A stretch of DNA of 22,387 bases from Promethearchaeia archaeon (lineage in GTDB: Archaea; Asgardarchaeota; Lokiarchaeia; Sigyniarchaeales; SOKP01). The notes under the pieces are model-generated. The model was not told where the DNA came from, ran no database searches, and saw only the letters and a program-made list of their open reading frames with translations. This document shows positions 19,459 to 22,318 of this stretch, one piece after another (position 1 is the stretch's first letter; each line of letters starts with the position of its first letter). The DNA is taken from the NCBI GenBank assembly GCA_046483985.1, contig JAWOCD010000025.1, positions 1 to 22,387 on the forward strand, written 5' to 3'. Made by a program: the position numbers and the translations under genes.

Positions 19459-19504
19459 CTGAACTATCACACCCTACAATACGGTGCTTTCTCGCACTCT
19501 AACG
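19459..19504 (-). mobile_element. Minimal IS200/IS605-derived element (left end fused to right end, ~46 bp)
   Basis: TTTAC|CGTTAGAGTGCGAGAAAGCACCGT is identical to the 5' end of the 19782..20005 element; it is followed by an imperfect hairpin CACCGTA-TTG-TAGGGTG and AGTTCA, the same ending as that element. Confidence 0.6.
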
Positions 19505-19536
19505 GTAAAAATAGAGAAAAAAACAAAAAAGTTCCT

Positions 19537-19701
19537 TTAATCTTCTTCTTTTTTTTCTACAATTACATTATCTCGTTGGATTCCTGTTTCTCGACTCTCC
19601 GGGAGCGGTTTTCCACAATAGTCTTTTTGTGCCTGCATCTCCTTCCAATCTTCTTCCATTTTTTTATCTAATTCTTCTTTATCTGATTCTTCCTTTTTCA
19701 T
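19537..19701 (-). CDS. Small acidic hypothetical protein (54 aa), below the ORF-track cutoff
   Basis: MKKEESDKEELDKKMEEDWKEMQAQKDYCGKPLPESRETGIQRDNVIVEKKEED*; E/K-rich like neighbouring genes; TTTATAAA about 40 nt upstream. Confidence 0.6.
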   Translation of the reverse strand: MKKEESDKEELDKKMEEDWKEMQAQKDYCGKPLPESRETGIQRDNVIVEKKEED

Positions 19702-19781
19702 ATTCTTTAGTTAGAAATGTTTTTATTTAAAAATTACATTTATAAAAAATTGATTTGAGTTTTATTTTTTCGCTTCTTCTT

Positions 19782-20005
19782 TTGAACTGGCATATCCTAA
19801 AGGGCGATGGATTCGTAATTCATCGAGAATCGCCGACACATATAACATCGGTCTTACATCCTCTTCAAACGTCAAACCCGCAACCCCTACGGTTGGGGAT
19901 GAACTTGGTTATCTTCCATCAATTACATTATTAATAGCGCTCCTTTATAAAAATATGGGCGATTCATCAGCGCCATGAAGGACGGTGCTTTCTCGCACTC
20001 TAACG
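19782..20005 (-). mobile_element. Non-autonomous IS200/IS605 mini-element carrying a tnpB 3'-end/omegaRNA-like remnant
   Basis: Follows TTAC. Left-end-like GCGA-GAAAG-CACCGTCC-TTCA-TGGCGCTG-ATGAA-TCGC. Degenerate reading SAINN...TVGVAGLTFEEDVRP resembles the TnpB C-terminus (NAAxNI...TVGxxG...DVRP). Right-end-like GAATCC-ATCGCCCTTTAGG...AGTTCAA. No transposase present. Confidence 0.7.
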
Positions 20006-20029
20006 GTAAATAAAAAAATAAGTTAAGGA

Positions 20030-20407
20030 TTATTTTTTTCCTTGTTGCGCGATAAATTTGAAGGCAGATTTCTCTTTTTCCTCTGGTCTCCGTTCGGGTA
20101 CATTATAAAAATCCTTATCAACAGTTTTATAATAATCTGGGCGCATAAAAAGATTGCAGTAACATGTTCCGTATTCCGGTACATCCTTTTGTGCATATAT
20201 GCAAGGACAGATTATATCTCTGTCCAATTTCCTTTTTCCAGATGCTAACCGACATGGACAGCTTTGATATCCTAATTTCTTTTTATTCTCTATCAGCCCT
20301 TCAATTAAATCATTCAACGTTTCTTCATCTTTATTTAATATCCAGTCATTGGCCTCACATACATTATTACAATATTCTTTCATCCCTTCCTTCGTTTCCA
20401 TATCCAT
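20030..20407 (-). CDS. ftrB: Ferredoxin:thioredoxin reductase catalytic (beta) subunit
   Basis: CPCR...CPC...CYC triad. Start set at MDMETK (20407), just after the glutaredoxin stop, with GGAGGTG inside the upstream gene's last codons. Confidence 0.9.
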   Translation of the reverse strand: MDMETKEGMKEYCNNVCEANDWILNKDEETLNDLIEGLIENKKKLGYQSCPCRLASGKRKLDRDIICPCIYAQKDVPEYGTCYCNLFMRPDYYKTVDKDFYNVPERRPEEKEKSAFKFIAQQGKK

Positions 20408-21119: not shown

Positions 21120-21265
21120 CCGTTTTCACTCTAAATAATGATTTATCCACATAAGAACCTAGTTATAATAAATTATAAAAAGATTAAAGAACGCAAAGAC
21201 ATTAAAAATTTATAAGGTACATTTTTAATTATTTGATAAAATTATTTTTCTATACAAGAAATAAA

Positions 21266-22318
21266 ATGAGTTCTACCGAACAATTCCTCTGTATTAGCTA
21301 TTTTGATCAAATTATCGGGCCGAATATATTTTATTGCAACAAGCCGCTAGAAGAAAAGAAAGAGGATACCCCCGATTTAGAACGTATTTTAGAATTTAAC
21401 GAAGAGCCCGGAACTTTTATTTTTGCATTTCGGAAATTCCAAACGATTAATCGGATCTTCTATGTTGATTCTCGTATTGCCCGAGGGGGTAAAGAACTCA
21501 TAATGATTTCTTACTTAGTTAAAACATCCTATTTCCGAAATGAAATAACCGATGTATTCAAATATTTGCGGTCTAAAAAGCCTATTTTAGAAGACTTCTC
21601 TGAAGAATTATCCCGGATTGAAGAATTACCGAAAGTCCTCGCCAGCGAAAAGGGCAAACACCCCAGAGGAAATCTCCTTCAGTTTGGCTCAAAAAAGTTC
21701 CAAGAAGAATTTTTGGCTGTGTTTAATAAATATTACAATAAAATAATTCCCAAACACCCGTATAATGTTCCATTCAAGAATAAAGGGGCTTCGAAGAAAA
21801 AGATTTTTATTTTCGGTTCCAAAAAATCCGGTAAAAAAACATTTTTAAAAAATATTGAAGCTATCCAGTTCCATAAGCAAGTAAATAGAGACTTACCCAC
21901 ACTTATCTATGAGATTGTCATAGATAATATTGAAGTGATGACATTTAATTGTACCGATGCCAATATAGAATGTGAAGAATGTCCGGATTTCGGAAATTGC
22001 CTAAATAATGCTCAAGGATTTATATTGATTTTTGATGTGTCTGATAAGCAATCTCTTATTGAAGCCAGAAAGAAATACCAAACTATAGTAAATAAATGTC
22101 AATTATACAAGAAAGATACTAATAGTACGCCAGTATTAATCGTTGGTAATAAATTTACACAACATGAAGAAGTACTGGAGGAAATGGTTGAAGAAAAATT
22201 TGATCTTGACATAGCAAAAAAATGTGATATTGTTTTCAAATATTTTTCCATTAATATCATGAAAGAGGATGAAAAATTAATGAACGCGCTTCGGTGGCTT
22301 GTTCAAAATATGATGTAG
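21266..22318 (+). CDS. Longin/uDENN-like domain fused to a degenerate Ras-like small GTPase domain
   Basis: N-terminal LCISYFDQIIGP; C-terminal IFIFGSKKSGKKT (G1), LPT (G2), AQGFILIFDVSD, LIVGNKF (G4). ATG 21266 preferred over TTG 21233. Confidence 0.75.
   Translation: MSSTEQFLCISYFDQIIGPNIFYCNKPLEEKKEDTPDLERILEFNEEPGTFIFAFRKFQTINRIFYVDSRIARGGKELIMISYLVKTSYFRNEITDVFKYLRSKKPILEDFSEELSRIEELPKVLASEKGKHPRGNLLQFGSKKFQEEFLAVFNKYYNKIIPKHPYNVPFKNKGASKKKIFIFGSKKSGKKTFLKNIEAIQFHKQVNRDLPTLIYEIVIDNIEVMTFNCTDANIECEECPDFGNCLNNAQGFILIFDVSDKQSLIEARKKYQTIVNKCQLYKKDTNSTPVLIVGNKFTQHEEVLEEMVEEKFDLDIAKKCDIVFKYFSINIMKEDEKLMNALRWLVQNMM

What the first reader, a model, noticed from the sequence alone, without database searches (positions are those of the whole stretch)
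19760..20010. Orphan TnpB omegaRNA-like cassette in a 224-bp IS200/IS605 mini-element
Seen (minus strand): TTAC, a left-end hairpin, an internal TTTTATAAA, then CCGTAG-GGG-TTGCGG, GATGTAAGA, CCGATGT/GTGTCGG, CGATGAA, GAATCC...CCCTTTAGG...AGTTCAA. All tnpA and nearly all tnpB coding sequence is missing. Known: IS200/IS605 elements insert 3' of a short motif (TTAC for IS608), have subterminal hairpins, end near TCAA, and the tnpB 3' end plus right end encodes the omegaRNA whose guide is the right flank. Inference: the element kept essentially the RNA scaffold behind a TATA-like box, so it may express a guide (about AAGAAGAAGCGAAAAAATAA) for a TnpB in trans. A family of such copies would be a dispersed guide library. 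Hairpin mismatches suggest some decay.
Basis: partly seen in the sequence, partly recalled or inferred. Interest (0 to 1): 0.75.

Follow-up and report, generated by a model that had tools for sequence, protein, structure and literature searches.

The report
Gene-less IS605 mini-transposon keeping guide-RNA end
This 224-base stretch is a protein-less miniature of a TnpB-carrying IS200/IS605 transposon in an archaeal genome that still holds the template of the nuclease's guide RNA; this kind of element is already described, and this copy looks old and partly decayed.

Summary
On the minus strand, TTTAC (20010-20006) is followed by a 224-bp element (20005-19782) that ends in GTTCAA. It is one of about 25 near-full copies and more than 40 partial copies in this genome.

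A covariance model built only from four tnpB-linked 3' ends hits 19782-19903(-) at 67.9 bits, E 2e-16. Full 419-aa tnpB genes in two other genera end in the same 125 nt. So the interior is the omegaRNA-coding tail of a lost tnpB.

Its helices are kept by compensatory changes, and the layout matches the ISDra2 omegaRNA: a UUUA loop at -20..-17, and UUC at -5..-3 facing GGA at -105..-103. The ends follow IS608 rules (TTAC, AAAG, hairpins, TCAA). A conserved TTTATAAA box lies upstream of the scaffold, and the host is an archaeon with TBP genes.

Function is not shown:
- No transcript over the scaffold was recovered.
- No intact cognate TnpB is assembled here, only a 57-codon tail at a contig start.
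- The guides match only their own flanks.
- This copy's end hairpins carry mismatches.

Such elements (PATEs) carrying omegaRNAs for trans-acting TnpB were described by Meers et al. 2023. The scan has already noted this family on other contigs of this genome. Verdict: a new member of a known kind, of modest interest.

The parts
20006..20010 (-). TTTAC: target site left of the element, and the expected TAM of the cognate TnpB
   Evidence: Conserved in 40 of 49 left ends while the bases further upstream are not. IS608 inserts 3' of TTAC (PMC3201880).
19782..20005 (-). The whole 224-bp non-autonomous IS200/IS605 element (PATE)
   Evidence: Similarity among 25 copies starts and stops at these bases. 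nhmmer matches the full family model, E 2.2e-67.
19957..19998 (-). Left end: outer stem GTGCGA/TCGCCC around the imperfect palindrome CACCGTCC-TTCA-TGGCGCTG. AAAG (19988-19991) lies just 5' of the hairpin foot, and 18 nt separate TTAC from that foot.
   Evidence: Pair counts on 19 copies give 94% and 85% of cells paired, with an AU/CG swap at one pair. The geometry matches IS608 (TTAC 19 nt from the foot of IPL, guide AAAG). This copy has 2 mismatches in the inner hairpin.
19944..19951 (-). TTTATAAA: candidate archaeal TATA box, about 23 nt upstream of the first scaffold helix
   Evidence: Nearly invariant in the 19 copies. The genome encodes TBP. Use as a promoter is inferred, not shown.
19898..19920 (-). 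Helix H0, GATGGAA...GTTCATC, upstream of the core scaffold
   Evidence: 78-88% of cells paired in the mini-element rows. The tnpB-linked copies have a different hairpin at this place.
19782..19903 (-). omegaRNA-type scaffold: the relic of the tnpB 3' end plus the right end
   Evidence: Model R1, built from 4 tnpB-linked tails only, scores 67.9 bits, E 2.1e-16, over model positions 1-125. 87% of cells are paired against 30-42% in the slid controls.
19878..19892 (-). Stem-1-like hairpin CCGTA-GGGGT-TGCGG. Its loop (-106..-102) can pair with GUUC at -6..-3 to form a pseudoknot.
   Evidence: UA/CG swap in 12 of 44 sequences. The pseudoknot is 94% paired, with one compensatory change. The positions match the ISDra2 pseudoknot (PMC10097598).
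19825..19863 (-). Long hairpin (helices H5 and H2), equivalent to stems 3a and 3b of ISDra2
   Evidence: All 5 pairs of H2 and 2 of the 6 pairs of H5 show changes on both sides.
19789..19814 (-). Right end: GAAT (19811-19814), then the imperfect palindrome CCATCGCCC-TTTA-GGATATGCC. The loop TTTA falls at -20..-17.
   Evidence: 7 of 8 pairs covary in the family. This copy keeps only 5 of 8 pairs. In the parent gene the stop codon TAG lies in this loop.
19782..19785 (-). TCAA: right cleavage site and last four bases of the element
   Evidence: Present in nearly all copies. IS608 CR is TCAA.
19762..19781 (-). Right flank AAGAAGAAGCGAAAAAATAA, which would be the guide if the scaffold is transcribed
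   Evidence: Position only. Its other matches in the genome are low-complexity and none is preceded by TTAC.
19459..19508 (-). Second, ultra-short derivative. TTAC plus 24 nt of left end (with TTTAC, a 29-nt stretch identical to the main copy) is joined to GGGTGTGATAGTTCAG, with no scaffold.
   Evidence: the repeat finder family D1, BLAST 100% over 29 nt, nhmmer E 3.4e-4, sequence read.

Best explanation

One internal deletion removed about 1.15 kb of tnpB. What remains is the left end (hairpin plus a TATA-type box), the last roughly 140 nt of the gene, and the right end. In intact elements that last stretch is the template of the omegaRNA scaffold.

Shown: the boundaries, the family, the IS608-type end signals, the homology to full tnpB genes, and a strand-specific folded structure kept by compensatory changes.

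Inferred:
- Copies were spread by a Y1 transposase (TnpA) supplied by other elements, through single-strand peel-and-paste 3' of TTTAC.
- If transcribed from the TATA box, the RNA would be an omegaRNA whose guide is the 16-20 nt right flank.
- With a cognate TnpB supplied in trans, that RNA would direct cutting of the emptied site (TTTAC plus flank), so that the copy is restored by recombination.

This particular copy is old: its closest sister is 91% identical. Both end hairpins carry mismatches, and no intact cognate tnpB is assembled in the genome. It is therefore most likely an immobile, passively decaying insertion. Its scaffold apart from stem 4 is still intact.
For: - Family and boundaries.
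- End signals as in IS608 (TTAC, AAAG 5' of the hairpin foot, hairpins, TCAA about 10 nt past the right hairpin): one search read against PMC3201880.
- No usable ORF. The tnpB-tail frame is broken by a 4-nt length difference between subfamilies.
- Parent genes. G055:C260 and G036:C4 carry 419-aa TnpBs (HTH_OrfB_IS605, OrfB_IS605 and TNB domains). Their last 125 nt plus right end match the element. G036 also has TTTAC and a related left-end hairpin.
- Covariance model R1, built from tnpB-linked tails only, hits the window copy at 67.9 bits, E 2e-16.
- Structure. 87% of cells are paired against 30-42% in slid controls, 25 of 38 pairs change on both sides, and 0 of 500 shuffles reach the observed values. 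The result holds within the 19 mini-element copies alone. Many G-U pairs place the fold on the tnpB-sense strand.
- The layout matches ISDra2.
- TnpA genes are present, with similar left hairpins beside them.
- The orthologous intergenic region of a relative lacks the element.
- Decay of this copy.
Against: - No read or contig shows a transcript over 19782-19960.
- No precise empty-site allele was found, so mobility rests on the pattern of copies.
- Compensatory changes among mini-element subfamilies that share one deletion junction suggest the RNA fold was under selection after tnpB was lost. That argues against a purely passive history for the family.
- The assembly is fragmented, with 128 contigs and many ending inside IS copies, so a cognate tnpB could be missing from it.
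Confidence: 0.85

Rival explanations
1. The family is a working, guide-only parasite. The RNA is made from the element's own promoter and loaded by a TnpB encoded elsewhere in the cell. It drives cutting and recombinational refilling of emptied sites, so that copies keeping the scaffold are retained better than copies without it.
For: - The TATA box is conserved and correctly placed.
- The RNA-only helices (H1, H2, H5) keep pairing through compensatory changes among subfamilies that share the same deletion junction.
- At least four independent deletion forms keep the same 125 nt.
- C31:1-191 is an open-frame tnpB tail of the right lineage at a contig start.
- All 16 relatives with this TnpB lineage also carry the scaffold.
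- The model is stated in Meers et al. 2023.
Against: - No cognate full-length TnpB is seen in this genome, nor in G034, G014 and G015, which hold 23, 12 and 9 scaffolds.
- Derivatives with no scaffold at all also persist, one of them 270 bp away.
- No transcript was seen.
- This copy's stem 4 and left hairpin are damaged.
Confidence: 0.3
2. The conserved fold serves only single-strand DNA transposition, as recognition structures for TnpA. It has no role as RNA.
For: TnpA acts on the same (top) strand and needs the subterminal hairpins. G-T pairs are tolerated there too.
Against: - By what is known of IS608, TnpA needs only the hairpins and the guide and cleavage tetranucleotides.
- Copies that keep just those parts exist here.
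- The covarying helices H1, H2 and H5 lie outside them. They match stems 1, 3a and 3b of a solved omegaRNA position by position.
Confidence: 0.08
3. The copies act as a dispersed guide library that aims a TnpB, or a nuclease-dead TnpB-like repressor, at other loci in the genome.
For: 49 different right flanks sit behind the scaffold or the right end.
Against: - Non-self matches of these flanks are short and low-complexity, at chance level.
- Only one is preceded by TTAC.
- Each flank is simply the DNA next to an insertion.
Confidence: 0.03
4. The element encodes a small protein, using the open frame MDDNQVHHITAGTAGLAFGEDVRP... seen in some copies.
For: Several copies keep about 47 open codons beginning with ATG.
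Against: - The frame is the residue of the TnpB tail.
- It is shifted or stopped in other subfamilies and in the window copy itself.
- Conservation follows base pairs, not codons.
Confidence: 0.02

Closest known systems
PATEs: palindrome-associated transposable elements of Haloquadratum walsbyi, and PATE-like elements of Geobacillus stearothermophilus (PMC3119063; Meers et al. 2023, PMC10055086)
   Same: They are gene-less IS200/IS605 derivatives with both transposon ends and many copies per genome. They are presumed to be moved by TnpA in trans. Meers et al. say they often encode omegaRNAs that TnpB would have to act on in trans.
   Different: The host here is an AT-rich archaeon with Arf/Ras-type GTPases, which earlier notes of this scan call an Asgard archaeon. 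The sequence family is different. Here the link to the parent tnpB, the covariation and the promoter box are documented copy by copy.
IS608 of Helicobacter pylori (IS605 group)
   Same: Insertion 3' of TTAC, AAAG just 5' of the left hairpin about 19 nt from TTAC, right end TCAA about 10 nt past the right hairpin, and no terminal inverted repeats.
   Different: IS608 carries both tnpA and tnpB. The parent found here (G036) carries only tnpB, and the element itself carries no gene. The flank preference here is the five bases TTTAC.
ISDra2 TnpB omegaRNA (PMC10097598)
   Same: The scaffold overlaps the tnpB 3' end and runs to the right end, and the guide is the flank. There is a UUUA tetraloop at -20..-17, UUC at -5..-3 facing a G-A stretch at -105..-103 in the stem-1 loop, and a long stem 3 at about -82..-44.
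   Different: There is no sequence similarity, and stem 1 is shorter here. The pseudoknot and stem 2 are almost invariant here, so covariation cannot prove them. No protein partner lies in cis.
Haloarchaeal sotRNAs, now read as omegaRNAs (Rfam RF02656 and RF02657; PMC12558985)
   Same: Archaeal RNAs that overlap the 3' end of IS1341-type tnpB genes in sense.
   Different: No Rfam family matches this region, even at E up to 10. This is a separate scaffold lineage.

Membership tests
IS200/IS605 non-autonomous element (PATE) | Inserted 3' of a short conserved motif, with no target duplication and no terminal inverted repeats | tested here: met
   TTTAC precedes 40 of 49 left ends. The flanks are otherwise unrelated, and the ends are not inverted repeats of each other.
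IS200/IS605 non-autonomous element (PATE) | Subterminal imperfect palindromes at both ends, with guide tetranucleotides 5' of each hairpin foot | tested here: met
   The left and right hairpins are 85% paired in the family, with compensatory changes. AAAG and GAAT lie 5' of the hairpin feet. AAAG is confirmed for IS608 in PMC3201880. GAAT as the right guide of IS608 is from my memory.
IS200/IS605 non-autonomous element (PATE) | No transposase or tnpB gene inside the element | tested here: met
   The element is 224 bp. The only frame is a broken relic of the TnpB tail.
IS200/IS605 non-autonomous element (PATE) | Many dispersed copies, and a Y1 transposase in the same genome | tested here: met
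   About 25 near-full copies. There are 15 Y1_Tnp matches, several beside similar left hairpins. Whether that TnpA actually moves this family was not tested.
IS200/IS605 non-autonomous element (PATE) | An empty-site allele showing precise insertion | tested here: inconclusive
   The relative G010 lacks the element at the orthologous spacer, but the spacer has diverged too far to show the junction. Neither the empty nor the occupied junction is in the metagenome collection.
TnpB omegaRNA | Sequence continuous with the 3' end of a tnpB gene and the right end | tested here: met
   Full tnpB genes in G055 and G036, a gene cut by the contig end in G059, and a 57-codon open-frame tail at the start of own contig C31 all end in the same 125 nt. 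Model R1, built from those four, hits the window at E 2e-16.
TnpB omegaRNA | Conserved secondary structure on the sense strand | tested here: met
   87-89% of cells paired against 27-43% in slid controls, with compensatory changes in H1, H2, H5 and the right hairpin.
TnpB omegaRNA | A pseudoknot joining the last bases before the guide to the stem-1 loop | tested here: inconclusive
   The pairing is possible in 94% of cells and sits at the ISDra2 positions, but only one compensatory change was seen. A competing nested helix (TGAATTA/TAGTTCA) is equally well paired.
TnpB omegaRNA | Transcribed, with the flank as the guide | tested here: inconclusive
   RNA-library contigs cover the neighbouring genes and the left junction, but not the scaffold. 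Contigs drop repeats.
TnpB omegaRNA | A cognate TnpB present in the same cell | tested here: inconclusive
   Only a 57-codon tail at the start of contig C31 was found. There was no match at E<=1e-40. The assembly breaks at IS copies.
Rfam omegaRNA-type families (sotRNA RF02656 and RF02657, and others) | A match to the curated covariance model | tested here: not met
   There is no relevant hit at the gathering score or at E up to 10.

The most novel reading that the evidence does not exclude
After losing tnpB, this mini-element lineage kept evolving under selection for the omegaRNA fold, with its own archaeal promoter. On this reading it is a guide-only hyperparasite that borrows TnpA to move and TnpB to be retained, and it has spread through at least 10 genera of this archaeal family.
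Probability: 0.3. Interest if true: 0.5.

Novelty: new member of a known kind. Interest (0 to 1): 0.3.

Why it matters
If the RNA is made and used, these elements would show that the guide RNA alone can be the unit that TnpB-based homing preserves. That would be a natural separation of guide and nuclease, of the kind thought to precede CRISPR arrays, and here it would be found in archaea related to the eukaryotic lineage.

In practical terms, the family offers a compact scaffold of about 125 nt and a predicted TTTAC TAM for the 419-aa TnpBs of G036 and G055.

As it stands, the finding mainly helps annotation. About 70 such pieces in this genome should be labelled as transposon remnants, not as genes or novel RNAs.

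Tried and rejected
- Rfam, at the gathering score and at E up to 10, gave nothing relevant.
- Folding the single sequence gave z = -0.44, which is uninformative. The structure only appears in alignments.
- The first candidate parent was the 'type B' tnpB fragments of this genome (C71, C24, C18). They share only the last 35-40 nt, so I rejected them as the direct parent.
- The abundant tnpA-tnpB 'type A' elements have a different tail and a different right end.
- tblastn of the relic peptide against the own genome found no full TnpB carrying it.
- The guide-library idea was tested and found no TTAC-flanked secondary targets.
- Sequencing runs held under a sixth of the sampled words. The contigs laid do not cover the scaffold uniquely, and the DNA-run contigs come from other copies. 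No claim about expression or habitat is made beyond noting that identical neighbouring sequence stands in salt-lake RNA libraries.
- Searches for the empty-site and occupied-site junctions in metagenome contigs both returned zero, so they carry no weight.
- The rRNA search for taxonomy found nothing, because rRNA is not assembled.
- The small-protein reading was rejected.

Full report
**Observation.** Read on the minus strand, the window shows TTTAC at 20010-20006 and then a 224-bp unit from 20005 to 19782 that ends in AGTTCAA. The unit has no gene. The only ORFs over it are short, mechanical ones.

**It is a repeat family with sharp boundaries.**
- The own genome (4.06 Mb, 128 contigs) gave 45 BLAST matches, the best non-self at 91% identity, E 8e-81.
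- A family profile found 135 hits, 23 of them spanning the whole unit.
- In an alignment of 25 copies with flanks, similarity begins at TTTAC and ends right after GTTCAA. The flanks are unrelated.
- TTTAC precedes 40 of 49 left ends, while the bases before it only follow the AT-rich background.
- This is the pattern of an element that inserts 3' of a fixed short motif without duplicating its target.

**The ends follow the IS608 rules.** In IS608 the left cleavage site TTAC lies 19 nt 5' of the left hairpin foot. It is read by the tetranucleotide AAAG just 5' of that foot. The right end is TCAA, 10 nt 3' of the right hairpin (PMC3201880). Here:
- 18 nt separate TTAC from the hairpin CACCGTCC-TTCA-GGGCGGTG (family consensus).
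- AAAG directly precedes that hairpin.
- GAAT lies 5' of the right hairpin CGCCC-TTTA-GGGCG.
- TCAA ends the element about 10 nt later.
- That GAAT is the right guide of IS608 is from my memory, not from a paper read here.
- The genome has 15 matches to the Y1 transposase family and 26 to the TnpB zinc-ribbon domain. Many sit at contig ends.

**The host is an archaeon.**
- It has two tandem-repeat TBP genes. No rRNA is assembled, and GC is about 34%.
- The element lies between a ferredoxin-thioredoxin-reductase-like gene and a small conserved ORF.
- An Arf/Ras-type GTPase gene lies 1.2 kb away.
- The conserved TTTATAAA (19951-19944) is therefore a credible TATA box. It lies about 23 nt before the first helix of the scaffold. 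Its use is inferred.

**The interior is the tail of a tnpB gene.**
- Translating the copies shows a relic frame...GTAGLAFGEDVRPMLSVSAILDELRIHRPLGRGSS. It is not kept between subfamilies, because a 4-nt length difference shifts it. The constraint is therefore not on protein.
- In this genome, no full tnpB carries this tail. The only trace is the start of contig C31, where 57 open codons (72% identical to the TnpB below) run into the same right end.
- In relatives the parent is clear. G055:C260 and G036:C4 encode 419-aa proteins with the HTH_OrfB_IS605, OrfB_IS605 and TNB domains.
- Their last 125 nt plus right end match the element. The stop codon TAG sits in the TTTA loop of the right hairpin. 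G059:C91 is the same but is cut by its contig end.
- The G036 copy also has TTTAC, a related hairpin and the shared ATGAAT motif on its left side. That gives a tnpB-only element of about 1.4 kb. Its exact left boundary is not settled.

**A non-circular model test.** I built a covariance model from the four tnpB-linked tails only (A5, R1).
- It hits the window at 19782-19903(-) with 67.9 bits, E 2.1e-16, across the whole model.
- It finds 69 places in the own genome.
- It finds the scaffold in 24 of 61 sampled genomes and 10 of 13 genera of the taxonomic family.

**The scaffold is a conserved fold.** The test used 44 sequences (A3) and a structure of my own.
- 87% of cells are paired, against 30-42% when the partners are slid.
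- 25 of 38 pairs change on both sides, and no shuffle in 500 reaches the observed values.
- The helices that TnpA has no known use for carry the clearest swaps: the CCGYA/TRCGG hairpin, the long hairpin GAGGAT...ATTCTC, and its inner helix CCGAT/GTCGG.
- The same holds among the 19 mini-element copies of this genome alone. All but one of those 19 (C41) share one deletion junction.
- Frequent G-U pairs put the fold on the tnpB-sense strand.

**The layout matches the solved ISDra2 omegaRNA** (PMC10097598). Counted back from the guide:
- The UUUA loop falls at -20..-17.
- UUC falls at -5..-3, facing GGA at -105..-103 in the loop of the first hairpin. That is the pseudoknot of ISDra2.
- The long hairpin spans about -82..-44, as stems 3a and 3b do.
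- The pseudoknot and a 3-bp stem 2 are almost invariant here, so they are consistent but unproven. A competing nested helix is equally well paired.

**What is not shown.**
- *Expression.* RNA-library contigs from salt-lake samples cover the small ORF (19470-19676, no mismatch), the reductase gene and the junction into the left end (19983-20230). Nothing unique lies over the scaffold, and contigs drop repeats.
- *A partner.* The TnpB lineage is found in 16 of 61 relatives, and all 16 also hold the scaffold. Eight scaffold-bearing genomes show no such TnpB, including this one (45 hits), G034 (23), G014 (12) and G015 (9). Assemblies break at IS copies, so this is weak evidence.
- *Targets.* The 49 right flanks have only chance-level, low-complexity matches elsewhere, and only one of those is preceded by TTAC.
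- *An exact empty site.* The relative G010 lacks the element in the orthologous spacer but has diverged too far to show the junction. The junction searches were blank.

**State of this copy.** The RNA-only helices are intact: 29 of 30 pairs, counting the pseudoknot and stem 2. The right hairpin keeps 5 of 8 pairs, and the left hairpin has two mismatches. The copy is therefore probably no longer a good TnpA substrate, and its stem 4 is weakened.

**Variety of derivatives.**
- Some copies fuse 15-20 nt of left end to the same 125 nt. Some keep more of tnpB, up to the RuvC-III region. Some have the scaffold but no left end.
- Some keep only the two ends. One such copy of about 46 bp lies 270 bp away in this window.
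- Retention of the scaffold is therefore common but not obligatory.

**Comparison and novelty.** Gene-less IS200/IS605 derivatives are known as PATEs (PMC3119063). Earlier notes of this scan describe the same family on other contigs of this genome and reach the same reading. I consulted them only after forming mine, and they did not change it.
- the parent tnpB lineage;
- the independent model test;
- the position-by-position match to ISDra2;
- the spread across genera;
- the hint that the fold was kept after tnpB was lost.

**Verdict.** The anatomical interpretation is right and the functional claim is untested. This is a new member of a known kind, of modest interest.

Noticed in passing
window 19459-19508 (-): An ultra-short derivative of the same family. 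TTAC plus 24 nt of left end (with TTTAC, a 29-nt stretch identical to the main copy) is joined to about 16 nt of right end that finishes in TCAG, with no scaffold. It lies between the small ORF and the CCG-domain gene.
   Followed up: partly
window 19537-19701 (-): A 54-aa acidic ORF with a conserved upstream TTTTTTATAAAT box. Both are kept in relative G010. An RNA-library contig matches 19470-19676 without a mismatch. The mini-element's right end lies about 20 bp upstream of this promoter and points into it.
   Followed up: partly
window 21233-22318 (+): A 361-aa protein with a C-terminal Arf/Ras-type small GTPase domain. This fits an Asgard-type archaeon.
   Followed up: no
G000 contig ends C125:7-111 and C127:5-163: Tandem arrays of a left-end fragment of about 50 nt (GTTAC-CACTAGAG...), repeated every 54 nt at contig ends.
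   Followed up: no
G000 C97:58750-59082 and C13:38223-38456: A mini-element copy cut at position 204 abuts the first 43 codons of a Y1 tnpA on the opposite strand. The same junction stands at two contig ends, so it may be one locus.
   Followed up: no
G000, many contig ends (e.g. C96, C74, C116, C4, C26, C27): A different and abundant tnpA-tnpB element. Its TnpB tail reads ...KICPPANA, and its right end reads GGAATCCCCGTCCTTTAGGGCGGGGAGACTTCAA. It breaks the assembly repeatedly. A 409-aa open frame lies at C97:63-1290.
   Followed up: partly
G012 and G014 (relatives), contig starts and ends: Many R1 hits lie within 20-170 nt of contig ends. This suggests recently active, near-identical full-length elements of this lineage in those genomes.
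   Followed up: no
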